DNA of 64,000 bases from Naegleria gruberi. Its lineage: Eukaryota. The stretch is from NCBI GenBank assembly GCA_000004985.1, contig GG738850.1; one strand, 5' to 3'. A model generated the notes under the pieces. That model did not search any database. It was not told where the DNA came from and was given only the letters and a program-made list of their open reading frames with translations. Each line of letters starts with the position of its first letter. The stretch's first letter is position 1. The position numbers were made by a program, and so were the translations under genes. Of this stretch, positions 12,553 to 63,004 are shown piece after piece.

Positions 12553-12615
12553 TCGGGTGTGGTAGCATTCCAGACTGTCACTCTGGCGACCCGGGTTCAA
12601 TTCCCGGCACTCGAG
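12553..12615 (+). tRNA. tRNA-Asp(GUC)-like element with truncated D-arm; probable pseudogene or tRNA-derived element.
   Basis: Acceptor TCGGGTG pairs with CACTCGA. Anticodon arm is CCAGA-CTGTCAC-TCTGG (anticodon GTC). T-arm is CCGGG-TTCAATT-CCCGG. Only 10 nt lie between acceptor and anticodon stem where about 19 are expected. A T5 run at 12621..12625 follows. Confidence 0.35.
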
Positions 12616-12975
12616 ATTAATTTTTGACACTATCTACAATATTTAAATTTTAACTTTTTCATAATAGGAGGAATGATATATGATCTAGCTAATTTTCAAT
12701 TATCAAAGTTTCAACTTTTAAAACCATCGAGAAAATAATCAAAGATTTGCCACTTTCATTTTCCGTAACAATATCACAACTCGAAACAATTCTATCCACC
12801 AATCTTTAAATTGTCTCAATCCTACTCTCGATGTGCAAGTTCATTCAATAAAAAAACACAATTTCCAAGAAAACAACTATTATTGATTCAAGAGGGTATA
12901 AGCTTTATGAAAAACAAATATAATAGGGTTATAATTTTGAAATATTCAATACATTTAGTTTAAACGTTTATTCAA

Positions 12976-15900
12976 TTAAACACTATAACTTAACATTTCC
13001 ACTTGAGCGTTAGGATCCCCAACTACTGGAACCTCATAGACAGGACCCTTTCTTCTCTTACAACAATCCCACTTCAATTTTAATAAGACAACAATAAAAA
13101 CAAAGACTGTACATAATAAACAAGTGAAACCAAGAATTGTTCCAAGAATTATACCCAAATATCGATCTTCTGCTATTGGTGTGGAAACCTTTACAACCTT
13201 TTCAAGAATATTTTCAATAATCATAGTGCTTGTTGTAGAGTTGCATTTACAAGTTGCGGTAGAGTTGGAGCTCACCACAACAACACAGGATGGATCAACT
13301 CCAACAGTGAAATTCTTAAATGTTCTACATAATAATTCTGAAGATCTATACACTTTTGTAATTACATTTTTGTTTGATTGAGTGGATTTAGTTGTGGAAA
13401 TCAAAGAGTTGCTTGGATAATTCTTGACGTTAGATATTGTCATATTATAAGTGATTGGAGTCAATACATCTGCAGTGGATTCCAATAATTCAAAGAATAA
13501 GACATTGCTTCTAAGAAACATGGTAGAAGATATTGATGTTTCAATCTTAGATGTGTTCACAGTGATGGTGCTATCACTTAACACCACCTTAGCGGCAACA
13601 GTGTCAGAAATACCAAATATATCGTTGGAGGAAATTGAAATAAAGGAAATAGACTTTCTGTTAGATTTTTCGCTCAAGTAGAGAGGCATTTCTGGAGGCA
13701 ACAAAACAACAGCACCTTCAAGTGGTGATGTTAATCTTGATTCAAAACCTGCTCTAAAGAGCTTGTTGGATGAAATTGAAGCAAAGACTGTCTTCAATTG
13801 TAAATCTCTTTCACCAATGTAAATACCTCTCAACATTAAATTAGAAACACGTTTCAGCATTGTGTAGAGAGAACTGAGTTGGTCTGATGCTTGTAACTGA
13901 TTGTATGTAATATAATTGTAGATAGAATTCAAGATATTGGTCAATAACTTGTCAACTCCAAAAGGAACTCTAAGCTCCTTATTATATTCGCAGAATTTAA
14001 GTAAGGTGTTAACAATATCATAGGCCTTTTCCATACTATGTCCATCCAATTCATCATACTTTTCAATCAATGAATCCAAACCGTATGCTTGAAGAGTCAA
14101 GTAGGTTTCTGTAATAATTTCATATGGATTTCTAGCGTCGAATGTTTGAATAAATTCATCCATCAAGGCAACTCTGATTTCCTTATAGGCAGCAAAATCT
14201 TCCTCTGTAACACTGCAATCTGCCTTTTCAAATCCAGATGCACATGAACATCTATTGGTTTCAGTAATAAGAGTTCCTCCATTTTGACAAACGAGCTTCA
14301 CATCTCTTCTTCTTGCACCACTGGTAATCTTTGTTAGCATACCATCAGCGACTCTTGAAATTGTTGCAGAGTTGAAAACCATCTTGGCTGTATCACCATC
14401 TTTGAGTGAATTTTGAATTGTACTGTAAGAGGCAACCTTCTTTTTAACTTCCACGACACTCTTTACAGCTGCAAGATCAATGGTAATGTCCTTTTTGATT
14501 TCAGTGTAGGCACCAGTGGATTTATCTGTTATTCTAATGTATGTGGTGACGATCTTGTTAGAAAGTGGTGTGTATGAACATGGCAGCTTGGTTGAATAGA
14601 CTTCTCCGTTTTGATAAAGTGGAATATTAGCACCTGATTTGTCATCAATAAAACCATAGACCACTTGAAGGGTCTTTTGAGCGTTTTGACAATTGGTACA
14701 TGCGAATGAGAAACTAGTTTCTAAGGCAATACCTGATGAAGGAGAAACAGTGCATGGACAAGCTTGAGGTGGAGCAGCAATTTGGAAAGAGTATGAATAG
14801 ACAGCACTCAATCCATTTCTAATATCAGTTACCTTCAAGGACAAGACATAGGTAGCTCCATCTTCCAACGTTGCAGGATCAATAACAACAGAGTTGGATA
14901 GTGTTGGGCTGGAAGTCATTTTAGAGATAACTGCTTCACCATTTGAAAGTATCTTTGAATTCAAAGTCCATTCTCTGCTAATATACTGATCAATTCCAAC
15001 AGATTCTCCATTGGCAGTGACTGCAAGTTGCAAGTTAACAATATCTTGTTTCAAAATGACAGTCTTAGTTGGGACAACTGAAATAAGTGTAACGGTTGGA
15101 GGAACTTTCTTACTTTCAGGGAAAACAAAATCAAGAGTAGTTTGAACTGATCTTATTCCCTTAACAACCGAGAGGGTTAATTTAAGAGTTGGCATCGAGT
15201 TGTAAACTTTGAGGTCAGCTGAGGAAATTAAAGGTCTAACAGTTCTATCATTTGAATACGAGATAAGGGCAGAATCAATAGTTGTTCCACACCCAACATT
15301 ATTAGTTGCATCGAAGCAAGACCATGTCCATGTTTCAGCCTCAGATGTGACATCAGGATCAACAAGATTGACAACAATAGTACCCATATCGGAAGATACT
15401 TCATCACTATATAAAATTAAGCTCAAAGGGCTTGGTCTAACAGTAATCTTAATGGTGTCGGATGCAGTCGAAAGAGGATTCACCACTGAAGTTACAGTGA
15501 TTTTGAATTCATAGACGGCTTCAACCAGACCAGAAAAGTGGGTGACTGCCAAGTTGTTAAACTTGTCTGTTTCAAAAGTTGTAACTGGACCTGATAATTG
15601 TTCCCAGACAATGTTTAATTGTTGGTTTGGATAGAAGCAACTTGGAAGCTCCAAATGCTTCTTAATGACAACAGGAGATTCATACTTGATAATAGTTCTG
15701 TCATTGAAACCAATAATGTATAGCACTGGAAGTGGAACGGCTGCCTTTGAAACACTCCAAATACTCATAGTACTGACCTTTCCAGATATTGAGCTTTCTA
15801 CTTGAAGACCGAACTTGTACTCACCAGGATATTGCATTGCAATGTAATCAAGAGACAAAACTGAGGTGTTAGGCATAGAGACAGAAAGGAAATTACTTGG

Positions 15901-18900
15901 AGAAGAAACAATTGTCCAATAATATTTCAATGGCTTTCTATCTCCAGAATAAGAAGCAGAGGCATCCAGACTAAAGTTATCGCAAGTACCAATATTATTC
16001 AGACCAGAAAAGACGACAACTGGTATTGCTGGATTATCGGCATTCAAAACATATACATCTTGTAAATCAGTACCACTGGCATCAAATACCAGTCTATTCA
16101 TTCCAACAACTGCTCCTGGCATTAAGGAATAATCATCTCCAAAGAGAATTGTAAATTCACCACTACCTCTATTTGTCCACATGCATACAGGACCAGTACC
16201 AAACAAGGATAATTGGGAGCTTGAAATTAATCTTGAACAATCAACTTTTGATTGAGTATAAGAAGCAGGACCAATAACTTTGAAAACAATGCCATTAAAC
16301 ATGTCCAAGAATTTGGCAGGACCGAATATTTGAGTTGAACATTGTGAACCATAATAACCAGTTTGACACTTGTTACAATTGGATCCTTCCCAATACCCTT
16401 CAGTTGGACTAGCATAACAAGAGCATGTTCCATTATTGGTACAATCTCCATGGTTAGAACATGTTGTTGATTTTTCACAAAATGTTCCACAATCAGAATT
16501 AGGATTGTAATAGTTGGTCTTGCAAACGGAACAGAACTTTCCGTCCCAATTACCATTGCAAACACATTGGAGAGCTGAATTACAATAGCCATGTTGGTTA
16601 CAAGTAGTAGCAGGATCACACTTGAGCTTCTTACATCCTGTTAATTCAGTTTCATAGTCAAGTCTACAAACATCACAATAGGTTCCTTGCCAATAACCAT
16701 CTTGATTATTTTGATTGCAAGAACATGTGTTGTAATCTGTACAATTACCCTGTCCACTGCAGACACCAGATTGATCGAACCTAATATTATTACAAGTGTA
16801 ATATTGACAATAATCACCAGAGTATCCTGTACTGCATTGGCATCCAGTGGAACTACAAATACCCTTTCCATTACATACTCTTGAGTCTGTTGAAACAACA
16901 AATGTATTCTCCTTACTCAAACATTGAAGATATTGACATTGATTTCCAGTGACTTTAGAAAGAGCAGTTGGAGCTGGGCAATTACATACATTAGGTGATG
17001 AACAGACACCTTTTCCACTACAAACATTGGAATCATTTGCAGGCTTTCCAAAACAAACTGGAATTTCACATGTGGCTCCAATGTATCCATTATTGCAAGA
17101 GCAAGTATTTGGAGCTGTGCAGGTTCCATTTGAGCTTGAACAAACTTTTGAATTATTAGCTAAAATTCCAAAACAGATTGGAATATCACAAGTAAAGCCA
17201 GTATATCCTGAAATGCATTGGCAAGAATCTGGAGCTGAACAAATCCCTTTTCCTGAACAAACTGAACTTGAATTTGACAGAATGTCATAACATTTTTTGT
17301 GTTCACAGGCCTCTCCTGCATAACCTTGTTTGCAGGTGCAATTGTTTTGACCTACACAATAGCCATTACCTGAACAAGCTTGAGGGTTCAAGCTTGCGAT
17401 TCCGTAGCAAGTAAAAGTACCTGGAATGATAAACTCACAATTATCTCCATAAAATCCTGCGAGACAACTGCAATTATTGACAGATACACATGCACCTCTG
17501 GATGAGCAAACAGAAGAAGAATTGAACATGGTTCCATTGCAGGTATGATGTTGGCAGTCATTACCAGTGTAGTTCTTGTTGCAAGAACAAACACCAGATA
17601 GACAAATACCATTAAAGGAACAAACTGATGGATCTTCGGCTGTTTTACCATTGCATTTCACATTTTGGCAATCATTTCCGTATGTTGAGGAATTACAATT
17701 ACAAACTCCTGAAATGCATTGACCTGCATAAGAACAAACAGATGGATCTTCAGCAGTCTTTCCATTACATTTGATAAATTGACAGTCATTACCATAGTTG
17801 GAGGAAGAGCAGGTACAAGCTCCTTGATAACAAGTGCCATTGGAGGAACAAACACTTGGATCGACTGCTGTTTTTCCATTACATTTCATGAGTTGACAGT
17901 CAGATCCGTAAGTGGTGGCGTTACAGCTACATGTTCCAGAAATACATTGACCTGCATAAGAACAAACAGAGGGATCTTCAGCAGTTTTACCATTACATTT
18001 GATAAATTGGCAATCATTACCGTAGTTAGTTGAAGAACAGGTACAAACACCTGAGGAGCATGTTCCATTCGATGAACATACTGTTGCGTTTTCTGCTGTT
18101 TTTCCATTACATTTCAAGAATTGACAATCGTTACCATATGTAGTTGAATTACAATTACACACTCCAGAAATACATTGACCAGATGAGGAGCAAACAGTGG
18201 AATCATTAATCATCTTTCCATTGCACTTCAACATTTCACATTGGTTACCATAAACAGTTGAGTTTACACAGGAACAAACGTCCTGAGCAATGCAAGAACC
18301 CATTCCACTGCAAACACTTTGACTACCGGCAGAAATTCCAAAACATGTAAAGAGACTTCCTGAACAATCATTTCCAAAGAATCCTGTATTGCAAGTGCAA
18401 TTATCAGTTGAAATGCAAGAACCATGGCCAGAGCAAACTAGAGTTTCATTGCTCATGACACCACTACATTTCCAAACTTCACAATCAGATCCATAAAAAC
18501 CAGAAGAACAATTACAAGTGCCAGTTAATGCATTACAATCACCACGTGAATGACAAACTGAAGAATCATTGGCAAACTTTCCATTACACTTGGAAAACTC
18601 GCATTCATTACCGTAGAAATCAGATCTGCAAGCACAAGTGTCCAATCTGATGCAATCACCTCTGGAATTACAAACTGAAGAATCATTGGCAAGCTTTCCA
18701 AAGCAAGATGGCTTATCACAGAGAGGACCTGTCCATCCTGGCTCACATTGACACTTATCAGTGCCAACACAAGAGCCATGTACACAACCTGGATTACAAG
18801 ACAAACTACAATTTGCAGTTATGATACCATCTTCACATTGACACAAATTATTGCCAGCACAAATACCATGACCACTGCAATAATTCAAAGCGCTGCAATC

Positions 18901-20020
18901 AAATTGATCACCAACATAGAGAGACGCAGTTGTAAAAGCAGCATTTTCACAAGCATACTTGTAGGCAAGTTTTCTTCTTGGATGGGAGCAAACATTTGTT
19001 CCCTTTCCACCCATTCCATGATAGGCACCTGTTTGACTTCCACCAATACCAATGTAGGCATCAAGTTTTCCACTCTCAACACAAGAGGCATTTGAAGAGG
19101 TTACAACACCAAATCTCACTTTCAAATAATTACTATTTCCCATGTTGAATCCAATTAATTTGTTGGCACAATATTTGGCAGATGTGTAATCTGGAGCTAG
19201 AGAATAGAAATTTCTAGCAGTTCTCAAAGATCCTGGAACTACTCTGGATTGATAAGTTTCATCAGAGAACGCTTCTAACAATGACTTTTTGTTAACTGTA
19301 AAAACAGCAGTATTGGTCTTGTTAGACTCGACAATGAATCCGTCATGATCCAAAACAAAAGCTGTCTTAACTGTTGTCATTTTCAAAGAGTGAGCAACAT
19401 GTTTAGTAAAAGCCAAAGTCTTCAAATTAGTATATTGATATCCAATACTTCCAACTGTGGCGTTATTGGTCCAATATTGACTAGAATAGGAGAAGGTTGC
19501 ATCAGATCCATCCTTCAAATCCAAAGCAAGAGCCCAAGCACCTATATTTTAACACAAAGGAGCCTTGTTAAATATGAAGAAGGAATAATAACATACCCTT
19601 TGATGAAACATCAAACAAGCACTTGGTTTGATAAGTAACCTTATTGTTATTTCCATCCAAAAGGAACAAGTAGAACAAGTTTCCAGAGATACTTGACACT
19701 GACTCTCCCTTACTCAAATAATAATCTCTGATGGCACCACAACTTACAGCAGCGGTATCAGCAGAAGATCCATTAGAGACTTTCAATTTGAGTGTAGTAA
19801 AAGAATCAATCATCCACTGACCCAAATTATCGGAAGGAGAAGAAGCAGCAATTATAGAACAGTTAAATAAAACAATTAATGCAATAATGGCCATAATCAT
19901 GGAGGCGCTTAATAAATTGGAGAATGATTTCTTCAACCTATTGAAACCACCATCATCATCACAGCGTTGAACTTTGTTGCTCAAATGAGGACACGTAAAA
20001 TGTCCCCTCATTGAATTCAT
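12976..20020 (-). CDS. Very large tenascin-type EGF-repeat transmembrane surface protein, about 2330 aa. Exon 1 is 19597..20020, intron 19542..19596, exon 2 is 12976..19541.
   Basis: Exon 1 has an N-terminal hydrophobic segment MIMAIIALIVLFNCSIIAA and ends at a GTATGT donor. ATAG acceptor; G + GT gives GGT in phase. Exon 2 has roughly 30 cysteine-rich repeats of form CNGK(T/M)xxDxSVCSxxGxCxxGxCxCxxxxYGxDCQ, laminin-EGF-like modules, a long beta-rich ectodomain, a C-terminal TM (ILGTILGFTCLLCTVFVFIVVLL) and a short cytoplasmic tail. Confidence 0.75.
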
Positions 20021-20398
20021 TTTTTTTTACACTTGAATCTTTGCAATTTGCGCGGGAGGAAAGGATGCAAATGTTTTTGGTCTTAATTTCCCAAAGGAAA
20101 CATACTTGCTGAATATAAAGCATGGAGACGAAGAAAGATTCTGAAAAAGTTAAGGCTGTCTTGTTTCTTGCTTCGTAATAATCGTTGAAAAAATAACAAC
20201 TTTTTTCCTTAATTATTTTGTGTACAATTAAGAACTGAAGGTGATTAAGGTAAGCTTTACTTTTATAATGGACCCTCCTCATCCCGCCAAAATACTCTCT
20301 AATGAAAAGTCATCATATGCGAGTCTTAATTAAAAAAAATACCTCTGAGAGAGTACACCCACCACAATCAATAATATATTTTCATACCTCGCGAAATT
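20021..20398. promoter_or_regulatory. Shared 378-bp divergent intergenic/promoter region between the two EGF-repeat paralogs.
   Basis: Head-to-head start codons at 20020 (-) and 20399 (+). Confidence 0.4.
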
Positions 20399-23300
20399 AT
20401 GCAAATATCATCACGGAATGTGTTTGTTGTGGTATTGTTGGTAATTGGTTTATTGTCCAATAATGTTTATTCCTTTAATGCTTCAGTGTGCCCCACTTTC
20501 AATAGCCAAGCGTGTAATGGTGCCGCCTTATTGAATCCGTGTGCTTCTGGTGGTGAAGAAACAAATTATTGTGACTGTTTTGGATTTGGGAGTGGCGGGT
20601 TTTCAGCCTTTTATGGAGGTGTTGCATGTGAAACCTTTCAATGCTATAAAGTAGACATGCATATTGGAATTGGTCTGTACGACCAATATATTTGTTCAAA
20701 TAATGGAGATTGCATTGGACCCAATAGTTGTCAGTGTAATCAAGGTTATACTGGTTACAAATGTCAATACTCTATTGCAGATATTTCTTGTTTTAACTTA
20801 CCCGCAAATAGTTCTACTGTCTGTAGTGGAAAAGGAAAGTGTACACATCCGAATGAATGCCTTTGTAATAAGGGATATGAAGGTTTAAATTGTGAAAAGT
20901 TTAGATGTTATGGTCATTTGAACTCGGATTCGAATGCTTGTAGTGGGAAAGGAAAGTGTATAGATTGGAATGTCTGCGATTGTGACAACGGAAATTCTGG
21001 AAAAAATTGTGAACTAGTGTCCACTGTTGGTAGCTCCATTCAAAGAGTATGTTTTGGAATACCTAACACTAACAATTCGGTCTGCAATAACCGTGGTGTT
21101 TGTGTTGGACCTGATTCCTGTGTATGTAATCCAGGATATTTTGGATCTGAATGTGAACATTCCTTCTGTTTTTCTATTCCTCAAAATGACTCATCTGTTT
21201 GTAATGGCAGAGGCTTTTGTAATGAAAAAGATTCATGTAATTGCCTTTCTCAACTCTCAAATGTTCTGATTTCAGGAAGTGAATGTGAATATTTACAGTG
21301 CAAGGGAACTTTTGGCCAATACTATTTCTCTACAGATAGTACCAATGTATGCTCTGGAAATGGAATTTGCACCCTAAACGGTTGTAACTGTACTGAAGGG
21401 TACTCTGGAGAATTTTGTCAAGATTATTTCTGTGGTGGTGTCCCAAATTACAGTCCATCGTCATGCTCTGGACATGGTAACTGTATTGCTCCAGATGATT
21501 GTTCTTGCTATACTAATTCAACTCATGGTTTTTGGATAGGATCTGATTGCAGTGTTTGTGATTCATCTCACCATGGATCTGACTGTTTGTCCAGTGTCAA
21601 CTGTGACAGATATGAAACTTGTAATGGCCAGGGAAATTGCTCTTCAAATCATACATGCCTTTGTGATGATGGATTCGAGGGAGAATTCTGTGATGAATGC
21701 TCAAATGATAGATATGGTTGGGATTGTAAGCAGTTTTGTTCAAGAATTTCAAGCTGCTATGGTCACGGTGAGTGTTCCAGAGATGGCCAGGTATGTGAAT
21801 GTGATTATTCCCAAAGCACTGGTTTTTGGAAAGGAAATAATTGCTCCTCTTGTGCTGATGGTTTTTTTGGAGACGATTGTTTGACAAAGGTTGGATCAAC
21901 CTTTGAGTTTAATTCCCTAGGAAATGAGATTTACTTTGATTTGAATGGTCCTTCAACCTATCTTGGTGGTGTTGTTGATTGTTCAACCCTCTTATCCTCT
22001 TCCTCTTACTCATCTATTGGAAGTTCATTAGCTAAATGTATTTTCAAAACTCCTTTAATTCCATCAAGAATTTCTATAGAGCTTGCAAGCACATCAACTA
22101 TTAAGCCAGGCGACTCCTTGGAGGTTAATTTGAAAGTTTTTGATGCACAACATCTACCAAGATCTCTCTCCACACTCTCATGTTCAGCATCTAATATATC
22201 TTCTCCTATTGCTGAAATTGTTTACCACAACACCTTAGTGAGATATTCTGAAAATTTGGTTCTTACAGGAAGAAATAGATTAGGTATTCCTCGTGAACGC
22301 GTATTGTTCTATGAGTGGACTTTAATTTCAAGTACCTCTTCTTTTAATTCTCTTTCTAGTGTTGTGTCGTCAGGATCAGGTCTAGGAAAATCAGTTCTCA
22401 ATATTTCTAACACGGATTTACCAGATAACAATGCATTTGCAATTCAACTTAAAGTGAAACACCCAGACTTTAACTTGTGGAGTAATTATGTAATCGTTAA
22501 CTTTACAAAAGAAGATCAACCAATAGTTCAATCACCGTACAAAAAATATGAAGTGTATATATATCCTCCTTTAGACCCCTATTATGTGACAGAGTTTGTT
22601 TTTCCAATCACTGTTCCGTATCAAGTTTTGGAAGATGGTGTTCCAGTGGATACTTCTTCATTTACTGCAATTAGTTGGACATTTGATCCAGATATTCAAG
22701 CAAGTGGGCAGAGTATTTTTACAGTGGATACAACAACAAATGGTGTACTTTCTTTTGATGCAACCATTAGTGAAATGGAAAATACTATTGTCACAGTTAA
22801 ATGTGACGTTATAGAAAACAATGTTGTATTAACATCCAGTTCTTTCAAAATCAAATCTGTTGCAGAGTATAAACCTTCTCTCAAAACAAATGAGACAGAT
22901 TATGGGGTTTTCTTTAATATTGGATCTTTGAAGGGAATGCCATTACAGCAGAGCTATTGGGAATGTCACGCACCAACACAGCACCAGGGAAAATGTGAAC
23001 CTGAAATCGAGGCTTTCTTCAAAGATGCAACTAACAAGAAAAGCGTCTTTATTCCTAATGAATATTTATACAAGTACAAAGTACTTTATTATGCTCGTGT
23101 TTCAATGGTTGTTAATGGGGCTCATTATAAGGGACAAGCGGATGCTTTTGGTAAAAAGGGTTTAGAAATCTTAAAGATTGGAAATGAAGATGTAAAGCAT
23201 TATGTCTATTTGAGTAGAACGCAACAAACTAACTACATTTTGTACTATGACAACACAAGACAATCAATGACAAGCCCTCCTTCATATTCAATGTTTGATG

Positions 23301-23971
23301 AGCTTGGAAATAACATTACAGATATTCTTGTTTTGGATGCAACAAACAAACGTATTATAATCAATCCTACCGCAATACCATCTCAATCAACTTTATTAAC
23401 CTTGTCCCTTACTGACACTTATGGAAGCATGATTTATAAGAAAAACCTTCATGCATTTGTTGACATGCTCCCTAAATCAAATTGTACTGTTAAAATTGCT
23501 GAACATCCGGTTACAGTTAGTGTTTTTAATGGAATACTCTACTTTTACAATATTACAGTAGCATGTGTAACTTCTTCAAAATTGCCAACAGTTAAAGTGT
23601 ATTTGAAGAACCAAAATACCGAACTATTCGTATGTGATTTTGATCCACTATTGCTTCCAAGTCAATCTTGCTACATTCTACTTCCAGAATTGATTGGACC
23701 AACAGATGTGTTTGCCAATGTTACTCATGCAACCCAGGAATTGGTTGCCCTATTACCTGTTGCAGAAGTAAGTGAATTGATTCCTATTGGAAGTCTAAGA
23801 GAAAGACAAACAACTCCCTCAGCAGATATTGATTCTCTTCAACAAATGTTCTACCAATATTTTGCCAATCCAAGAGATGTTGAAAACACATCTATGTTAC
23901 TTCAAACTCAAATCAAAAAACTGCTCTACTTACACTACCCAGAAAAGGAGCTTTCGTATCCAAATCTCTAA
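20399..23971 (+). CDS. Secreted tenascin-type EGF-repeat protein (1190 aa), paralog of the adjacent minus-strand giant.
   Basis: Signal peptide MQISSRNVFVVVLLVIGLLSNNVYSF. EGF/laminin-EGF modules. Its CDxxHHGSDC...CDDGFEGEFCDECSNDRYGWDCKQFC...FWKGNNCSSCADGFFGDDC...GPSTYLGGVVDCSTL block parallels the CDVCRLDYE...CSVCKTNYY...YWEGSNCNKCQTGYYGSQC...GPASYTQSKVDCSRL block of the neighbour. No C-terminal TM. Confidence 0.75.
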   Translation: MQISSRNVFVVVLLVIGLLSNNVYSFNASVCPTFNSQACNGAALLNPCASGGEETNYCDCFGFGSGGFSAFYGGVACETFQCYKVDMHIGIGLYDQYICSNNGDCIGPNSCQCNQGYTGYKCQYSIADISCFNLPANSSTVCSGKGKCTHPNECLCNKGYEGLNCEKFRCYGHLNSDSNACSGKGKCIDWNVCDCDNGNSGKNCELVSTVGSSIQRVCFGIPNTNNSVCNNRGVCVGPDSCVCNPGYFGSECEHSFCFSIPQNDSSVCNGRGFCNEKDSCNCLSQLSNVLISGSECEYLQCKGTFGQYYFSTDSTNVCSGNGICTLNGCNCTEGYSGEFCQDYFCGGVPNYSPSSCSGHGNCIAPDDCSCYTNSTHGFWIGSDCSVCDSSHHGSDCLSSVNCDRYETCNGQGNCSSNHTCLCDDGFEGEFCDECSNDRYGWDCKQFCSRISSCYGHGECSRDGQVCECDYSQSTGFWKGNNCSSCADGFFGDDCLTKVGSTFEFNSLGNEIYFDLNGPSTYLGGVVDCSTLLSSSSYSSIGSSLAKCIFKTPLIPSRISIELASTSTIKPGDSLEVNLKVFDAQHLPRSLSTLSCSASNISSPIAEIVYHNTLVRYSENLVLTGRNRLGIPRERVLFYEWTLISSTSSFNSLSSVVSSGSGLGKSVLNISNTDLPDNNAFAIQLKVKHPDFNLWSNYVIVNFTKEDQPIVQSPYKKYEVYIYPPLDPYYVTEFVFPITVPYQVLEDGVPVDTSSFTAISWTFDPDIQASGQSIFTVDTTTNGVLSFDATISEMENTIVTVKCDVIENNVVLTSSSFKIKSVAEYKPSLKTNETDYGVFFNIGSLKGMPLQQSYWECHAPTQHQGKCEPEIEAFFKDATNKKSVFIPNEYLYKYKVLYYARVSMVVNGAHYKGQADAFGKKGLEILKIGNEDVKHYVYLSRTQQTNYILYYDNTRQSMTSPPSYSMFDELGNNITDILVLDATNKRIIINPTAIPSQSTLLTLSLTDTYGSMIYKKNLHAFVDMLPKSNCTVKIAEHPVTVSVFNGILYFYNITVACVTSSKLPTVKVYLKNQNTELFVCDFDPLLLPSQSCYILLPELIGPTDVFANVTHATQELVALLPVAEVSELIPIGSLRERQTTPSADIDSLQQMFYQYFANPRDVENTSMLLQTQIKKLLYLHYPEKELSYPNL

Positions 23972-23981
23972 TCATAAAATT

Positions 23982-26900
23982 TTAATTGAATTCATTATTG
24001 ATTTTTCTCTTTCTTGAGAATATTTCTGCATCTCTGGAAACAAATGGAAAAACAGCAAACCAAATCATACACAATAAACAACTAGAAACCAAACACCACC
24101 CAAGACCTAAACTGAATGCAATCTCATTATTATCACTAACAATACTATCGTCATCATTGAAAGAGAATGGGAATCTGAATATGGTCTCAGTAATCATGGT
24201 AGAAATCAACATGGCCGAGAGAAGCAGAGGGGCAAAGTATTTGACTAAAAAGCACCAAACCCACAAAACTGTCTGTGTTGCCAAATCAGTGCATTTGTAA
24301 ACAAATGTATTCTCAGTGAAAATATTTTCCTCTCCATCTTCATTCTCCTCAGTAGCATACTTTTGAATAATCTTTTGTTTTTTAGCAAGAATGTGGTTTT
24401 TAAATCTCTCAACAGAGAAGAAGGCCGCTCCTTTCCAATATTTCTTTGGGTTGTTTTTCAGTTTTCTGAATGCATGTGTGAGATTAGGGCAGTGAATCAA
24501 ATATTTGAAAAATACCACAAAGTGGGTGGCCATGATTTTACAACGTTTTGTAAATCTTGCACACACAGAGGTGTCTCCCTCCAAAACCATATCAACTATT
24601 CCCTCCTCTGATGGCTCTATCATTTGAATCATTTCTTCTTGCCATTTTTCATGGTTAGCTGCCAAAGCTTCATTAATCTTGTTAACGATATCCTTCTCTT
24701 CCAATTCACTGCATTGACTTTCAAACATTTTACTTCCAAATGCAAAATATCCAACAACTATACACTCAGCCAATCCCATCAAAACTAGACAATAATTTGA
24801 AATGTAGTGATCCACAATTCTAATCAAGTAGTATCCATTATTAAGAGTGAACGGCAATCCTAAAATGAAGCCAACAAGGCAAACAATAAAAGTTGCCACG
24901 TTTCTGTTAGTCAACATTTTGTAAGTGAATGGCATGTCTGGTACATTGTCCTCATGAAGCAAATCTTGCTTCTCTGGAGGAAGATTAATAGTCTCCTTCT
25001 TAATAGCCACAGGAGAAGATGAAATCACATTGGATGAATCGATGGTATCCTCCAGTGGTACTTCATGTTGAGCATCAACTGCTTGTTCTGTCATTTCATG
25101 TTCATTGTGGAAATTCTGCATGTAAATCTTTTGAACATACTTCCAACGTTGAACTTTGAGATTCCACTGCATTGAGAAGTGATCCATCAGGGCACTTGTT
25201 ACACATTCCACACAAGCAAAGGCACTATCTAATCCCATTGAAAATATAGTGGCAATCAGTAAGAGAGCAGAAAAGTGAGGAACTGGCAAATAGGAAACAG
25301 CTTGGAAGTAGACAATAAAAGCCAATCCCAATCCTGAACGAACTGTATCACTAGTAAAGAGCTTGTCAAAATCTGCAAGAGCTGTTTTCAAATAATATTA
25401 TATGAATATTAAGGTAAAAATTAATATTAAAAAAGGTTTGTGAAAAAACTTACCATTCTCACCAAACTTGTCATGAGCCATAACACCCAAAATTGAAAAG
25501 ATAGTAAAGCCACTCAAAAAGGCAATAAAGCAATTGGCTGCCACCACAACAACTGAAGCAATGATAATATTTGATTTTCTACTCAAATATGAAGAATAGG
25601 TAGAGTTGGTTCCATTTCCAACACCAACACTGAAGAATACCTGACCAGCAGCCGCCAACCAAATTTCAGTTTTCAGCAAGACACTGAAATCTGGTTTGAA
25701 AAAGTAGTACAAACCAGAGCTACTTCCCACTTCGAACAATATAGTTCTCAACAAGTAAATGGCCAATAAACAAATTGGCAAAGGTACTGAAATGAAAACT
25801 ACAAATTTGATACTGCTCACACCCTTAAAAACGCACAAAAAGTTGAAAAATACCACAACCAGTAAGCCCAATAAAATTGGCATGGAAACAAAGTCTACTC
25901 CATAAAAATTCGATGGATAATTGCTTATCAATGTAGTTGGTCCAGTGGATTTTCTCAAAACTACAGAATTGAAGAACTCTTCAGCCTTCCCAATCCATGG
26001 TAATTCAGCTTGGAATAAGTTTACAAAATAAACACAAGTCCAACTCAGAATTACATTATAATAACTCAAAATTAATAAACTTCCAAAAACTGTCATGGCC
26101 AAACCAACTCCACAAGCTCTTCTATTCCACTTTGAAATGGATAATATGGAAGATCTTCTCGACATGACACCAAGTGAAAATTCCAACAAGGTCAATGGCA
26201 ATCCCAAAACAACCAAACAGAAAATGTAAGGAATGAGAAATCCACCACCTCCATACGTATAAACAAGATATGGAAAACGAATCAAATCTCCCAAACCAAC
26301 ACTCGAACCAATGGCTGCAAATAAAAAGCTAATAACTGATCCAAAATGTTGTCTCTTATCATCTTCCAATCCATTCGATCCATCATCCACAAATTTGAAA
26401 CATTTCTCATTGGCAATACTTGCCAAATCCAAAGAACTCGTCTCTGAAACATTATCTGCATAATAATCCATACTAGAAGTGGCAGATAAACTTTCCTCTT
26501 CAGTTGTTGTACCTTCCTCTGATTCGAATGCTTGCTCTTCACTCTCAACTTTTGGACCCAAATCTGAATGTCTATGAATGTGATGAGAAATCTTTGGCTT
26601 GTGATTTGGTTTTCTATGGTGATGTCCATGATGACGATGATGAGAAAGTCCCCTTGTGGCATTAAGTTGTTGTTGCTGATGATGACCACGAAGATTATTA
26701 CGAGAACTTCTTCGAGAGGAATCTCTCTTCACTTCTTCCATCATTCCAGCCTGATGTTCCCTCTCAACATCTTCCATCATGATTGTTTCCTCCAACTCTT
26801 CTGGATGATGATTATGAGTGCCTTGTTGTTCTTCTCCTTCTCCAATCATTCCTCTCTTATCAAAGGCTAGAGATGATAAAGTTGTTGGAGCAGCTCCTAC

Positions 26901-27374
26901 TCCGTAATGATGAATGTGTTGGGAGTAGATGGATTTGAGTGCTGAATTATTTACAACTCCAATCCTGTTGCCAATCAATTGGCTATTATCCAAACTTCTT
27001 CTCATATTATTATTGTTAATTATATTTAAATTATTTAAAGTTTTGGAGGGTGGATCCTCTCCACTACTACTACTCATCGATTGTTGTTGTTGTTGAATGA
27101 GAAGTGTGGATGGAAGTTTGGGCGAAGAGGGTGAATTGTTATTTGTATTAGAAAATTGTTGCTGTTGTGATTGTAAAATTCTGGGTGATGACGATGACTG
27201 AGAAGAAACTCTCGGAGAAGATGTACCTGAATTATTGTTCATCATTTCCTTCTCAAAATTGCTGTGAAAATCTTCACAATGGTTTGTTTTCAATTTTTTG
27301 GTTGTTGTCCAACAACTGAAAATTTGGTCACAACTCTGAGATGAGAATTGGTTTTGGTTAGTACTTGATTCCAC
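23982..27374 (-). CDS. Sodium:neurotransmitter symporter family (SNF/SLC6) transporter, about 1105 aa. Exon 1 is 25454..27374, intron 25382..25453, exon 2 is 23982..25381.
   Basis: SLC6 signature AAIGSSVGLGDLIRFPYLVYTYGGGGFLIPYIFCLVVLGLPLTLLEFSLG in exon 1. Exon 1 ends ...HDKFGENG at a GTAAGT donor; AAAACAG acceptor. Exon 2 continues ALADFDKLFTSDTVRSGLGLAFIVYFQAVSYLP...SMGLDSAFACVE (TM6-8 region). The first ~320 aa are a Q/H/S-rich low-complexity tail. Confidence 0.8.
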
Positions 27375-37681: not shown

Positions 37682-39850
37682 ATGGAAAATCCAGAACATT
37701 TAACTATTAATCGAATTAATAATAATAATAATAGAGGCTCATTGATGATGATGAGGGTAAATTCATCCCCATTATCGCCCAATACTACTACTGGCTCAAC
37801 AGCTTCAGCAACATCACCATCGACGACGTTGAACGATTCGAATTTATCTTTGGATGAACTTGATTCGTTAAGTAGTGCATCTTCGATGCATTCGAATACA
37901 ATACTATTGAATCAATTTGTGGCAGCCGCTTCTAAAAAGACAAGAAAGAGTAGACCTACTAGTAATGACAGTATTGATGGGTTACCTCAAATTGGAATTA
38001 CTAATGAATTTGGAAATGTAAAGAGAGTAGCAAGTCCTCAGGAGGATGAAGAAAGTTTTGTGATGAGTGATTCTTCAAAGAGTGGAATGACCAGTAATAC
38101 ATCGAGGTCTTCCTTCTCTTCAATGAATTCTTCATTCTTTGAGGAGTTGGAGGCACAATTTATGAATACATCGAGGTCAATACACTTGATTCATTTATTA
38201 TTGCATCCAGTGACAAAGGAATTATTCAGACAATACTGTATCAAGACGAGGGTTTGCGAGCTCTTTGATTGCCTGGAGGAAATTAGATTGTATTATGTGG
38301 CAATCGATACATTTAAAACACAATCTCATAAGAGAAAGATTGAGGAAATGAAACATTTACTCAACACGAATCAAAATTCTCCCAAGATCAGTGCCTCCTC
38401 TGAGAATATGTCTGTTTCTTCTAGTACTGATTCTCTTAAAAGGAAGAATAGAATGTCATTATCAGCGAGTGGTACCAAACTCTTTTCAAACAAACGTCAA
38501 TCAGTAGCTCTCCTCTTTAATAATAATAGTAATTTGATGGAATTATTGCAGGAGAAAATTCATCAGGATAAGAATATGGATGAGGAAATTTCATTTATGG
38601 GATTATTTTCACTTGGAACACAGGAAAAGGATCAAATTACAATAGAAGATATATCAAAAGAGGAGAGGGATTCCCTCAAGGAAAAGGCACAGAAAATATT
38701 CGACTCTTTTCTCTCTCCCAAATCAAATAGAGAAGTCAACATTGATAGCACACTCCGTTCTTCAATAGAGACCAACTTGAAAAATCTCGATTCAGACCAC
38801 TCTCTGTTTGAGAAACTTTATGAGGAATTACGTCTATTAATTCTAAGACAACTCAAAACTGACGTGTTGTTCAGGTTTGAAAAATCATCAGATTGGACCA
38901 CCTTCCTCTCTGATACTCATAATGTTTCAGTGGTGGAACAAGTTATGGATTATAGTAACTCTGTTTGGTCAGCCAATGCAGATTTTGGAGGATTTAAACG
39001 AATGACCAAGAGGGATTGTGTCAGAGATTATGTCAAAAAGGAAGACTTTTCATTCATGAAACATGTTTTATTTGCACCTCTTCCACATTGGAAAAATCTT
39101 ACAAATACCAAAGCAACCAATTCTCCCTTCTCAACATCCTACTCGAAGGGAAAGTACTTCATTGATCAAGAATCAATTCGATTGAAATTTGGATGTCTCA
39201 AAGAAACAGCCACTCTTCCTTTCAGTGCTGAGGAAGTTTTTGCAGCCATTCACTCTAAACTCTTCCAATCCATCACAGATGACACTCTCAATGTCGATGA
39301 CTCGATATTTTGTCTCAAGAGCTTCTCTCACCGTGTAGTAGAAGGTATTCTACCAACTGACATAAGCAAGTTTTCTTTCAATTTGCCAATTCCACTTTCA
39401 AATCAAAGAGGTTGTTATCAAGCTCACTCTACAATTTATGAACCAGAGTCGAAACGATATTATTATTTCAGCAAACCAATTCTATTCAATGAAAATTACT
39501 CTTTCGAAAAAGAGTCTGTACAGTGCTATTCATTCAATATGGTTTGTGTGGAAAAGGTTGATGACAGAAATTGTAAATACTACAGTGCTTTTATATCCAA
39601 CTTTGGAGGAATTTTGAAACACTTCTCCACCAAGGTTTTTAAGAGAATTGCTTGGAAACGATCGAGTCAAACTCGAAAGTCTATGATAGAAAAGCTCACT
39701 GAAAATCGAGATAGTTTATACAATAATACTAGAGATGGCTACGACACTTGTCTGGATAATCTCAAGAGGTATCAATCATGCTCCAATATTTCACTAGATT
39801 TCCCAAAAACCTTTTCAGAGTTTCAAGAACGATTTTGCAAATACTATTAA
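37682..39850 (+). CDS. RGS-domain protein (soluble; S/T-rich N-terminus; RGS domain split by a long insert).
   Basis: LLLHPVTKELFRQYCIKTRVCELFDCLEEIRLYY (RGS N-subdomain). ...AQKIFDSFLSPKSNREVNIDSTLRSSIETNL...LFEKLYEELRLLILRQLKTDVLFRFEKS (RGS C-subdomain). Confidence 0.65.
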   Translation: MENPEHLTINRINNNNNRGSLMMMRVNSSPLSPNTTTGSTASATSPSTTLNDSNLSLDELDSLSSASSMHSNTILLNQFVAAASKKTRKSRPTSNDSIDGLPQIGITNEFGNVKRVASPQEDEESFVMSDSSKSGMTSNTSRSSFSSMNSSFFEELEAQFMNTSRSIHLIHLLLHPVTKELFRQYCIKTRVCELFDCLEEIRLYYVAIDTFKTQSHKRKIEEMKHLLNTNQNSPKISASSENMSVSSSTDSLKRKNRMSLSASGTKLFSNKRQSVALLFNNNSNLMELLQEKIHQDKNMDEEISFMGLFSLGTQEKDQITIEDISKEERDSLKEKAQKIFDSFLSPKSNREVNIDSTLRSSIETNLKNLDSDHSLFEKLYEELRLLILRQLKTDVLFRFEKSSDWTTFLSDTHNVSVVEQVMDYSNSVWSANADFGGFKRMTKRDCVRDYVKKEDFSFMKHVLFAPLPHWKNLTNTKATNSPFSTSYSKGKYFIDQESIRLKFGCLKETATLPFSAEEVFAAIHSKLFQSITDDTLNVDDSIFCLKSFSHRVVEGILPTDISKFSFNLPIPLSNQRGCYQAHSTIYEPESKRYYYFSKPILFNENYSFEKESVQCYSFNMVCVEKVDDRNCKYYSAFISNFGGILKHFSTKVFKRIAWKRSSQTRKSMIEKLTENRDSLYNNTRDGYDTCLDNLKRYQSCSNISLDFPKTFSEFQERFCKYY

Positions 39851-41101: not shown

Positions 41102-41175
41102 GCCGTCATAGCTCAGTTGGATAGAGCACAGGACTTCTAATCCTGGGGTCGTGGGTTCGAGCCCCATTGTCGGTA
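41102..41175 (+). tRNA. tRNA-Arg (anticodon UCU).
   Basis: Cloverleaf is GCCGTCA/TA/GCTC-AGTTGGATA-GAGC/A/CAGGA-CTTCTAA-TCCTG/GGGTC/GTGGG-TTCGAGC-CCCAT/TGTCGGT/A. A-box TAGCTCAGTTGG and B-box GGTTCGAGCC. One T-T mismatch in the acceptor stem. Confidence 0.85.
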
Positions 41176-62382: not shown

Positions 62383-63004
62383 NNNNNNNNNNNNNNNNNN
62401 NNNNNNNNNNNNNNNNNNNNNNNNNNNNNNNNNNNNNNNNNNNNNNNNNNNNNNNNNNNNNNNNNNNNNNNNNNNNNNNNNNNNNNNNNNNNNNNNNNNN
62501 NNNNNNNNNNNNNNNNNNNNNNNNNNNNNNNNNNNNNNNNNNNNNNNNNNNNNNNNNNNNNNNNNNNNNNNNNNNNNNNNNNNNNNNNNNNNNNNNNNNN
62601 NNNNNNNNNNNNNNNNNNNNNNNNNNNNNNNNNNNNNNNNNNNNNNNNNNNNNNNNNNNNNNNNNNNNNNNNNNNNNNNNNNNNNNNNNNNNNNNNNNNN
62701 NNNNNNNNNNNNNNNNNNNNNNNNNNNNNNNNNNNNNNNNNNNNNNNNNNNNNNNNNNNNNNNNNNNNNNNNNNNNNNNNNNNNNNNNNNNNNNNNNNNN
62801 NNNNNNNNNNNNNNNNNNNNNNNNNNNNNNNNNNNNNNNNNNNNNNNNNNNNNNNNNNNNNNNNNNNNNNNNNNNNNNNNNNNNNNNNNNNNNNNNNNNN
62901 NNNNNNNNNNNNNNNNNNNNNNNNNNNNNNNNNNNNNNNNNNNNNNNNNNNNNNNNNNNNNNNNNNNNNNNNNNNNNNNNNNNNNNNNNNNNNNNNNNNN
63001 NNNN
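62383..63004. other. Assembly gap (622 N).
   Basis: Run of n characters. Confidence 1.

What the first reader, a model, noticed from the sequence alone, without database searches (positions are those of the whole stretch)
12976..23971. Divergently transcribed paralogous EGF-repeat giants sharing a 378-bp promoter
The ~2330-aa TM protein (minus) and the 1190-aa secreted protein (plus) share a collinear block of EGF-repeat array, laminin-EGF-like module and a G-P-[AS]-[ST]-Y...VDCS[RT]L domain. Their start codons are only 378 bp apart. This looks like a head-to-head duplication. A bidirectional promoter could co-regulate a membrane receptor/adhesin and a soluble paralog that might act as decoy or ligand.
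Basis: seen in the sequence. Interest (0 to 1): 0.5.

Follow-up and report, generated by a model that had tools for sequence, protein, structure and literature searches.

The report
Neighbouring Naegleria EGF-repeat surface protein genes
Two large cysteine-rich surface or secreted protein genes of the amoeba Naegleria gruberi sit head to head and are real but distant relatives within a big gene family, so the arrangement is an ordinary feature of a compact genome and not evidence of a special co-regulated receptor/decoy module.

Summary
The window is Naegleria gruberi nuclear DNA. Gene A (minus strand, 12976-20020) has one 55-nt GT..AG intron and encodes 2329 aa with a signal/anchor and one C-terminal TM. 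Gene B (plus strand, 20399-23971) encodes 1190 aa with a signal peptide and no TM. Their ATGs are 378 bp apart, and nothing else is detectable in the spacer.

They are paralogs: A819-1296 aligns with B98-583 at 37% identity (E 1e-87). Most of that is generic EGF similarity. B's EGF part is 35-43% identical to dozens of other EGF-array proteins. Specific homology is limited to the last EGF-like modules plus about 200 aa of two beta-sandwich domains.

In that unique module A groups with P0121 (100% bootstrap, same scaffold, outside the window). B groups with P0002 (98%, another scaffold). There is no DNA-level inverted repeat. So this is not a recent head-to-head duplication. At most it is a relic of an old local one.

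A has a polycystin-1/suREJ-like ectodomain: orphan head, about 20 EGFs, PKD/REJ, and a GAIN-like domain with a degenerate GPS. B lacks the head, REJ, GAIN and TM, and its C-terminal half is an orphan.

Divergent spacers of 430-620 bp are the norm in this window. Co-regulation and the decoy idea are untested. Low interest.

The parts
12976..19541 (-). Gene A exon 2, including the stop codon at 12976-12978. It encodes residues 142-2329.
   Evidence: A 2182-codon ORF. It joins exon 1 in frame after intron removal.
19542..19596 (-). Gene A intron, 55 nt, GTATGT...ATATAG.
   Evidence: Unspliced reading hits a stop and shifts frame. Removing it gives one 2329-aa ORF.
19597..20020 (-). Gene A exon 1: the start codon, a long n-region and a hydrophobic signal/anchor segment (residues 32-62, window 19835-19927).
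18886..19843 (-). Orphan N-terminal head domain of A (residues ~60-360; the span includes the intron).
   Evidence: No Pfam hit at E<=1. No homolog in the 5.8-billion-protein search.
16345..18885 (-). EGF-repeat array of A (residues 361-1207, about 20 repeats). It ends in two or three 8-Cys 'laminin-like' modules.
   Evidence: EGF_2 E 1.9e-62, EGF_TEN E 3.3e-47, EGF_Teneurin E 2.5e-36. Motif count. Laminin-EGF hit is sub-threshold.
17467..18264 (-). Internal tandem array of 114-nt (38-aa) EGF units inside gene A, 60-78% identical at the DNA level.
   Evidence: the repeat finder family D1, spacing 114. TRF periods 114 and 228.
14398..16344 (-). Post-EGF beta-sandwich domain (GPASY...VDCSRL), PKD-like domain and REJ module of A (residues 1208-1856).
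   Evidence: REJ PF02010 E 5.8e-29 (101 bits, cut-off 25). K319L-like PKD E 2.4e-9. Family alignment.
13180..14208 (-). GAIN-like juxtamembrane domain of A (residues ~1920-2262). It has a degenerate GPS: four Cys are kept, while the Trp and the H-L|T triad are lost. An isolated EGF lies just upstream.
13063..13161 (-). Single C-terminal transmembrane helix of A (residues 2269-2301), followed by a ~30-aa cytoplasmic tail.
   Evidence: Hydropathy scan. Coordinates checked by translation.
20021..20398 (.). 378-bp divergent intergenic spacer between the two start codons.
   Evidence: Sequence. No Rfam hit and no tRNA. The only ORF is junk-like and overlapping.
20399..23971 (+). Gene B, single exon, 1190 aa plus stop.
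   Evidence: ORF. 100% identical to an NCBI N. gruberi predicted protein.
20399..20473 (+). Signal peptide of B (residues 1-25).
   Evidence: It is the only hydrophobic segment in B. Translation.
20477..21886 (+). EGF-repeat array of B (residues 27-496, about 10 repeats including 8-Cys modules).
   Evidence: EGF_2 E 5.7e-19, EGF_TEN E 9.9e-16, EGF_Teneurin E 2.5e-12. Sub-threshold laminin/attractin EGF hit.
21887..22513 (+). Two beta-sandwich domains of B shared with the family (residues 497-705: GPSTY...VDCSTL domain plus a PKD-like domain with the L.Y.W motif).
   Evidence: phmmer to A, P0121, P0003 and others. Alignment A1. AF2 pLDDT is mostly 75-89 over these ~210 residues.
22514..23968 (+). 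Lineage-specific C-terminal half of B (residues 706-1190). It is predicted mostly beta and ends in a helical hairpin.
   Evidence: For residues 578-1190, only P0002 (24% identity, to about residue 911) and one 126-aa fragment match among 1.84 billion representatives. No Pfam hit. The AF2 model is low-confidence and gives only generic Ig-string fold matches.

Best explanation
These are two adjacent, anciently diverged members of a large, lineage-specifically expanded Naegleria family of EGF-array surface glycoproteins.

Gene A encodes a type I membrane protein. Its roughly 2200-aa ectodomain has, in order:
- an orphan N-terminal head;
- a stalk of about 20 EGF repeats, with a recently amplified 38-aa unit;
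- a beta-sandwich plus PKD/REJ module;
- one EGF;
- a GAIN-like juxtamembrane domain whose GPS cleavage site has degenerated.
These are followed by one TM helix and a ~30-aa tail. This is a polycystin-1/suREJ-like ectodomain on a single-pass anchor. By inference, A most likely acts as a non-cleaving adhesion or contact-sensing receptor.

Gene B belongs to a 'short secreted' subfamily together with P0002. It has a signal peptide, about 10 EGFs, the first two beta-sandwich domains of the family, and then a fast-evolving orphan Ig-like region. It has no membrane anchor. By inference, it is most likely a soluble or matrix-associated extracellular protein.

The head-to-head position is probably a relic of an old local duplication. 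After it, each copy gave rise to closer paralogs elsewhere.

The 378-bp spacer is the normal spacing for divergent genes in this compact genome. The two promoters must lie within it. Whether they are co-regulated is not shown.
For: - Organism and gene models.
- Domain content.
- Paralogy beyond the EGFs.
- Phylogeny (NJ, 313 trimmed columns, 200 bootstraps): A+P0121 100%, B+P0002 98%. Pairwise scores agree.
- The EGF-part identity is generic.
- No DNA inverted repeat between the genes. A has an internal 114-nt tandem array.
- GAIN/GPS.
- TM and signal segments.
- B's C-terminal half is an orphan.
- Family size: 22 N. gruberi proteins among the 120 listed hits, plus P0121 and A.
- Spacer size is typical.
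- B cannot extend further. A convergent SNF transporter gene ends 10 nt after B's stop.
- Published context: Naegleria surface proteins with EGF repeats, lectin domains and GPS motifs are known, for example the 7TM-RGS family (PMC9283941).
Against: - No expression, localisation or binding data were available, so the adhesion/sensing role is inferred from architecture alone.
- Both AF2 models are low-confidence (mean pLDDT 54), so the fold evidence for the GAIN-like domain and for B's Ig-like string is weak.
- Relationships among the A-group, the B-group and the environmental group are unresolved (26% bootstrap). The age of the A/B split is therefore not dated.
- The tree is NJ on 16 sequences, not ML on the complete family.
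- A could not be found in the protein database, so its gene model rests only on ORF continuity and the canonical intron.
Confidence: 0.78

Rival explanations
1. A single, fairly recent inverted (head-to-head) duplication produced the pair. A shared bidirectional promoter co-regulates a membrane receptor and a soluble paralog that acts as its decoy or ligand.
For: - The genes are paralogs, divergent, and 378 bp apart with nothing in between.
- One is membrane-anchored and the other secreted.
- Adjacency of family members is unlikely by chance (family size).
Against: - A and B are not sisters: A+P0121 100% and B+P0002 98% bootstrap.
- They are only 33% identical in the unique module.
- There is no DNA-level inverted repeat.
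- The EGF-part identity is generic.
- B lacks A's head, REJ and GAIN, and has an unrelated C-terminal half.
- The spacer length is ordinary for this genome.
Confidence: 0.1
2. The adjacency is fortuitous. Two family members were brought together by rearrangement or dispersal, with no local duplication at all.
For: - Each gene's closest relative lies elsewhere.
- There is no nucleotide similarity between the genes.
- The one homolog locus that could be read (L001) has no paralog as a neighbour.
Against: - About 11 N. gruberi genes carry the unique module, or about 24 EGF-array genes counted broadly. The genome has roughly 15,700 genes (figure recalled from the 2010 genome paper, not checked here). 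That gives only about 0.007-0.035 adjacent pairs expected by chance.
- A's sister P0121 lies on the same 707,703-bp scaffold, which points to local expansion.
Confidence: 0.1
3. B is a decaying, truncated copy (pseudogene or remnant) of an A-like receptor that lost its REJ/GAIN/TM part.
For: - B stops being alignable to A after about 200 post-EGF residues.
- B's C-terminal half has almost no relatives.
Against: - B is an intact 1190-codon ORF in a 35% G+C genome, with a canonical signal peptide.
- P0002 shares the same TM-less ~1200-aa architecture and aligns to about residue 911. This indicates a maintained secreted subfamily.
- The C-terminal region is predicted to be structured, mostly beta strands plus a helical hairpin, though at low confidence.
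Confidence: 0.04

Closest known systems
N. gruberi paralogs P0121 (partial, same scaffold) and P0021 for gene A; P0002 for gene B
   Same: - P0121 is 42% identical to A over 1138 aa (50% in the unique module). It has the same run of EGF, beta-sandwich, PKD/REJ, EGF and helical GAIN-A region.
- P0021 is 32-34% identical to A through to the TM.
- P0002 is 31% identical to B over about 900 aa. It is also about 1200 aa long and has no TM.
   Different: - The N-terminal heads differ. A's head is an orphan. P0021's head looks lectin-like on reading, which was not tested.
- A carries a larger EGF array with an amplified 38-aa unit.
- B and P0002 diverge completely after about residue 911.
Sea urchin receptor for egg jelly suREJ1, and the PKD1/PKDREJ (polycystin-1) family (architecture recalled from the literature, not re-read here)
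   Same: - REJ domain: Pfam PF02010, E 5.8e-29 in A.
- A PKD-type Ig domain.
- A juxtamembrane GAIN/GPS-like region.
- For suREJ1, EGF plus a binding head plus REJ on a single C-terminal TM.
   Different: - No PLAT domain and no 11-TM region.
- No C-type lectin domains.
- About 20 EGF repeats instead of one.
- The GPS H-L|T site and the Trp are lost in A.
- B has no REJ at all.
Naegleria 7TM-RGS proteins with adhesion-GPCR-like ectodomains (PMC9283941)
   Same: - Same genus.
[quoted passage not shown]
- Several hits to B carry RGS (PF00615) together with the same EGF types.
   Different: - A has one TM and a 30-aa tail, with no 7TM and no RGS box.
- A has a REJ module.
- B is soluble.
Tenascin/teneurin-type EGF arrays
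   Same: Both proteins score well above threshold on EGF_2 and EGF_Teneurin. A also passes EGF_TEN.
   Different: Only the repeat type is shared. No fibronectin III/fibrinogen domains (tenascin) or YD-shell/toxin domains (teneurin) were detected.

Membership tests
Tenascin/teneurin-type EGF-repeat proteins (Pfam EGF_2 PF07974, EGF_Teneurin PF23106, EGF_TEN PF25024) | Several repeats scoring above the curated thresholds | tested here: met
   A: EGF_2 207.7 bits (cut-off 22.1), EGF_TEN 161.5 (65), EGF_Teneurin 123.8 (24.3). B: EGF_2 68.6, EGF_Teneurin 47.1, EGF_TEN 58.5 (just under 65).
Polycystin-1 / suREJ (PKD-REJ) family | REJ domain (PF02010) | tested here: met
   A: E 5.8e-29, 101.4 bits against a cut-off of 25, residues 1480-1856. 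B: no hit even at E<=1 on residues 491-1190, so B does not meet this feature.
Polycystin-1 / suREJ (PKD-REJ) family | PKD-type Ig-like domain(s) N-terminal of REJ | tested here: met
   A: K319L-like_PKD 37.5 bits against 27. B: no Pfam hit. The aligned domain keeps the L.Y.W motif and is modelled as a beta-sandwich with pLDDT about 75-89, so B is inconclusive.
Polycystin-1 / suREJ / adhesion-GPCR GAIN domain | GAIN fold with a GPS motif directly before the first TM | tested here: inconclusive
   - A keeps the four GPS cysteines in register with homologs that have CxCxHLTxF.
- The family profile hits ADGRL3 (E 1.1e-7), ADGRG6, ADGRF1 and latrophilin GAIN.
- The best fold matches are GAIN domains.
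- However, the model has mean pLDDT 54 and TM-scores of 0.21-0.25.
Polycystin-1 / suREJ / adhesion-GPCR GAIN domain | Autoproteolysis triad H-L|T/S and the conserved Trp of the GPS | tested here: not met
   A has ...TCKCN-STT-STMIIEN... where homologs have ...TCECN-HLT-KFAGS.... The Trp column is not conserved in A.
Polycystin-1 proper (PKD1-like) | PLAT/LH2 domain and an 11-TM C-terminal region | tested here: not met
   A has one C-terminal TM (2269-2301), a ~30-aa tail and no PLAT hit.
Adhesion GPCR / Naegleria 7TM-RGS receptors | Seven-TM domain (and an RGS box for 7TM-RGS) | tested here: not met
   Hydropathy shows a single TM after the ectodomain in A and none in B. Neither has an RGS hit.
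Laminin-type EGF module | PF00053 or PF24973 above the gathering score | tested here: inconclusive
   A: EGF_laminin 14.8 bits against 21. B: EGF_LMN_ATRN 16 against 27. The 8-Cys spacing is a resemblance only.
Sister paralogs from one inverted duplication | Each gene is the other's closest relative | tested here: not met
   A+P0121 100% and B+P0002 98% bootstrap. A-B identity is 32.7%, against 50.5% for A-P0121 and 39.0% for B-P0002.
Sister paralogs from one inverted duplication | Residual nucleotide-level inverted repeat | tested here: not met
   0 inverted pairs of at least 30 nt in 12900-24000.
Bidirectional-promoter gene pair | Head-to-head genes less than 1 kb apart with no intervening gene | tested here: met
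   378 bp between the ATGs. No RNA gene and no credible ORF in between. This is also true of most divergent pairs in the window.
Bidirectional-promoter gene pair | Correlated expression, or shared TSS region and regulatory elements | not testable with these tools
   No expression or TSS data are reachable. The promoter scan offered is bacterial sigma-70 only.

The most novel reading that the evidence does not exclude
A and B form a functional module. They would be co-transcribed from the shared 378-bp spacer, with secreted B binding to or modulating the EGF/beta-sandwich region of membrane-bound A, or competing for the same extracellular partner. In addition, A would be a previously unannotated giant receptor whose orphan ~300-aa head domain is a new ligand-binding fold.
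Probability: 0.08. Interest if true: 0.4.

Novelty: new member of a known kind. Interest (0 to 1): 0.17.

Why it matters
The finding matters little beyond annotation.

- It shows that Naegleria, a deep-branching heterolobosean, carries single-pass proteins with a polycystin-1/suREJ-like EGF, PKD/REJ and GAIN-like ectodomain, and also secreted truncated relatives.
- These genes expand locally and evolve fast. They have orphan head and tail domains, and no close orthologs were detected in N. fowleri or N. lovaniensis.
- Gene A appears to be missing from public N. gruberi protein sets, so the locus is a useful annotation fix.
- If the pair were truly co-regulated and interacting, it would be a simple protist model for receptor/soluble-paralog pairs. 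Nothing found here points that way.

Tried and rejected
- **Neighbourhoods of paralogs.** The look-up of encoding contigs on B (P0001), P0121 and P0002 found no record. Whether A-like/B-like pairs recur could therefore not be checked. Only the environmental homolog P0011 could be read (L001), and it has no paralog neighbour.
- **A's N-terminal head (residues 58-365).** The homology search found nothing and Pfam found nothing. It was not modelled, because without an alignment the model would be poor.
- **Full-length A in the database.** A's C-terminal 1277 aa gave no ~100% hit. A seems to be unannotated. This was not confirmed with an exact-sequence look-up.
- **AF2 on B497-1190 and A1872-2272.** Both models have mean pLDDT about 54. 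The fold search on B gave only generic Ig-domain strings with TM-scores of 0.10-0.18, which I treat as uninformative beyond 'beta-sandwich repeats'.
- **Bacterial promoter/terminator scan of the spacer.** It found nothing and is irrelevant for a eukaryote.
- **Literature searches.** Queries combining Naegleria with REJ, polycystin, bidirectional promoter or intergenic gave nothing on this family or locus. Only the 7TM-RGS paper gave context.
- **Gene conversion between A and B in the EGF region.** I considered this as an explanation for the 37-39% identity there. I rejected it because B is equally similar (35-43%) to dozens of other EGF arrays, including a Chloroflexota protein.
- **B continuing past 23971 by splicing.** Rejected, because a convergent SNF-family transporter gene ends 10 nt downstream.


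Full report
**Source and gene models**

The window is nuclear DNA of the heterolobosean amoeba Naegleria gruberi. The plus-strand ORF 20399-23971 (gene B, 1190 aa) is 100% identical to an NCBI 'predicted protein [Naegleria gruberi]' on a 707,703-bp scaffold.

The minus-strand gene (gene A) is not one ORF. A 150-codon ORF starting at the ATG at 20020 is separated from the 2182-codon ORF 12976-19524 by a frame break. A canonical 55-nt intron (GTATGT...ATATAG, 19542-19596) joins them into one 2329-aa reading frame.

Hydropathy shows two segments in A: an N-terminal signal/anchor (residues 32-62) and one C-terminal TM (2269-2301) followed by a ~30-aa tail. B has only an N-terminal signal peptide. 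B cannot extend further, because a convergent SNF-family transporter gene (23982-27374, minus strand) ends 10 nt after B's stop.

The two start codons are 378 bp apart. The spacer has no Rfam match and no tRNA. Its only ORF is a junk-like 107-codon one that overlaps A's start in another frame.

**How similar are the two proteins?**

BLASTP aligns A819-1296 with B98-583 at 37% identity (E 1e-87, composition-corrected). That figure has two very different parts.

- **The EGF part (B98-340).** B is 39% identical to A here. It is also 35-43% identical to dozens of other EGF-array proteins, including a Chloroflexota protein. This part carries no pair-specific signal.
- **The specific part.** This is the last 8-Cys EGF-like modules plus about 200 post-EGF residues. 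phmmer of the non-EGF regions gives E 4e-13 and E 5e-9. A ten-sequence family alignment shows two domains. The other is a PKD-like domain with a conserved L.Y.W motif.

After about B residue 705 there is no detectable similarity to A.

The 'laminin-EGF' label is only a sub-threshold resemblance (14.8 and 16 bits against cut-offs of 21 and 27).

**Are they each other's duplicates?**

No.

- In the unique module (B340-660 and equivalents, 16 family members, 313 trimmed columns, NJ with 200 bootstraps), A groups with P0121 at 100% and B groups with P0002 at 98%. The identities are A-P0121 50.5%, B-P0002 39.0% and A-B 32.7%. Pairwise scores over full lengths agree.
- P0121 is a partial N. gruberi model on the same scaffold but is not in this window. 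P0002 is on another scaffold.
- There is no nucleotide-level inverted repeat between the genes.

Adjacency is still unlikely to be chance. At least 22 N. gruberi proteins appear among the listed hits to B, plus P0121 and A. About 11 of these carry the unique module. With roughly 15,700 genes (my recollection of the 2010 genome paper), only about 0.01-0.04 adjacent pairs are expected.

The best reading is an old local duplication, after which each copy spawned closer paralogs. The branching order among the A-group, the B-group and an environmental group is unresolved (26% bootstrap), so the split cannot be dated.

**What the proteins are**

*Gene A.* Pfam gives A an EGF_2/EGF_TEN/EGF_Teneurin array, a K319L-like PKD domain and a REJ domain (E 5.8e-29).

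- About 20 EGF repeats include a recently amplified 114-nt (38-aa) tandem unit at 17467-18264.
- After REJ comes one EGF, then a helical region followed by a beta region, then the TM.
- Homologs (P0003, P0007, P0015, P0029, P0033) have a canonical GPS (C...W...C...CxCxHLTxF) at this position. A keeps the four cysteines but has STT in place of HLT and lacks the Trp.
- A profile of this region hits the GAIN/GPS of adhesion GPCRs (ADGRL3 E 1.1e-7, ADGRG6, ADGRF1, latrophilin-1).

A thus has a polycystin-1/suREJ-like ectodomain on a single-pass anchor, probably with a non-cleaving GAIN-like domain. It has no PLAT domain, no 11-TM region, no 7TM domain and no RGS box.

Its ~300-aa N-terminal head has no Pfam hit and no homolog.

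*Gene B.* By Pfam, B has only EGFs.

- Its first ~210 post-EGF residues model as two beta-sandwiches (pLDDT about 75-89).
- The rest is low-confidence, mostly beta, with a C-terminal helical hairpin.
- Fold matches are generic Ig-domain strings.
- An exhaustive HMMER search with B578-1190 against 1.84 billion representatives found only P0002 (24% identity, to about residue 911) and one small fragment.
- P0002 is likewise about 1200 aa long and has no TM. B therefore belongs to a maintained secreted subfamily and is not a decaying copy.

**The 'bidirectional promoter' and 'decoy' ideas**

Using first-ATG coordinates of the long ORFs, divergent spacers in the window are 378, 432, 566, 571, 617, 785, 902 and 1250 bp. 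Two larger gaps may hide small genes. Convergent genes are 10-60 nt apart or even overlap. A family homolog on an environmental eukaryotic contig has an unrelated dehydrogenase as its divergent neighbour 389 bp away. A sub-kb shared upstream region is thus the default here and says nothing specific about co-regulation.

No expression or TSS data were reachable. The only promoter scan offered is bacterial.

A decoy would be expected to keep the receptor's ligand-binding part. B lacks A's head, REJ and GAIN, and shares only generic EGFs and two beta-sandwich domains at about 33% identity. The idea is not excluded, but nothing supports it.

**Comparison with known systems**

The closest relatives are N. 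gruberi paralogs (P0121 and P0021 for A, P0002 for B).

In architecture, A resembles sea urchin suREJ1 and the ectodomain of polycystin-1 (from my knowledge of those families). It also resembles the ectodomains of the Naegleria 7TM-RGS proteins, which are described as carrying EGF repeats, lectin-type domains and GPS motifs 'reminiscent of adhesion GPCRs' (PMC9283941).

Literature searches found no paper on Naegleria REJ proteins or on this locus.

**Verdict**

These are paralogs, divergently arranged, one membrane-anchored and one secreted. They are not a direct or recent head-to-head duplication. The spacer is ordinary, and the regulatory and decoy ideas are untested.

These are new or poorly annotated members of a known kind of protein family. 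Interest is low (0.17). The most useful by-product is that gene A, a 2329-aa gene, was not retrievable from the public protein collection while B was. This suggests a missing gene model.

Noticed in passing
window 12976-20020 (-): Gene A (2329 aa) gave no ~100% match in the 5.8-billion-protein collection, although neighbouring gene B did. The best hit to A's C-terminal 1277 aa was the 43%-identical paralog P0121. A therefore appears to be missing from public N. gruberi protein sets.
   Followed up: partly
window 12553-12615 (+): A 63-nt tRNA-like element scores 43.4 bits on the Rfam tRNA model (gathering score 29). Its D arm is reduced to about 3 nt and its anticodon loop is CUGUCAC (GUC, Asp). 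ARAGORN does not call it. It lies in the 1.4-kb gap 3' of gene A and could be a degenerate tRNA gene or a tRNA-derived element.
   Followed up: partly
window 39847-39850 and 50349-50352: Two convergent gene pairs share their stop codons in one palindromic TTAA, which reads TAA on both strands. B and the SNF transporter gene stop 10 nt apart. The 3' UTRs of convergent neighbours must therefore overlap extensively in this genome.
   Followed up: no
window 17467-18264 (-): Gene A contains a tandem array of 114-nt (38-aa) EGF units, 60-78% identical at the DNA level. It looks like a recent internal amplification (KCNGKTAEDPSVCS..G.C.SGVC.C.S..YGNDCQ).
   Followed up: partly
window 41102-41175 (+): A canonical tRNA-Arg(TCT) gene sits inside a 571-bp divergent spacer between two protein-coding genes.
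   Followed up: no
window 62383-63004: A 622-N assembly gap. The flanking 62-64 kb region shows very low G+C (26%) and strong skew in the composition profile, partly an effect of the gap.
   Followed up: no
window 23982-27374 (-): A sodium:neurotransmitter symporter (SNF) family gene is split into two ORFs separated by 6 nt (23982-25391 and 25398-27374). This is probably a short intron or a frame break.
   Followed up: no
L001 10001-15313 (+), JGI metagenome contig Ga0606064_0003: A 320-kb environmental eukaryotic contig carries family homolog P0011, which has an EGF array, PKD and a near-canonical GPS. P0015 is listed with the same longest-contig length (320,854 bp), so it may lie on that contig too. 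The compact gene spacing resembles Naegleria, so it is probably an unsampled heterolobosean.
   Followed up: partly
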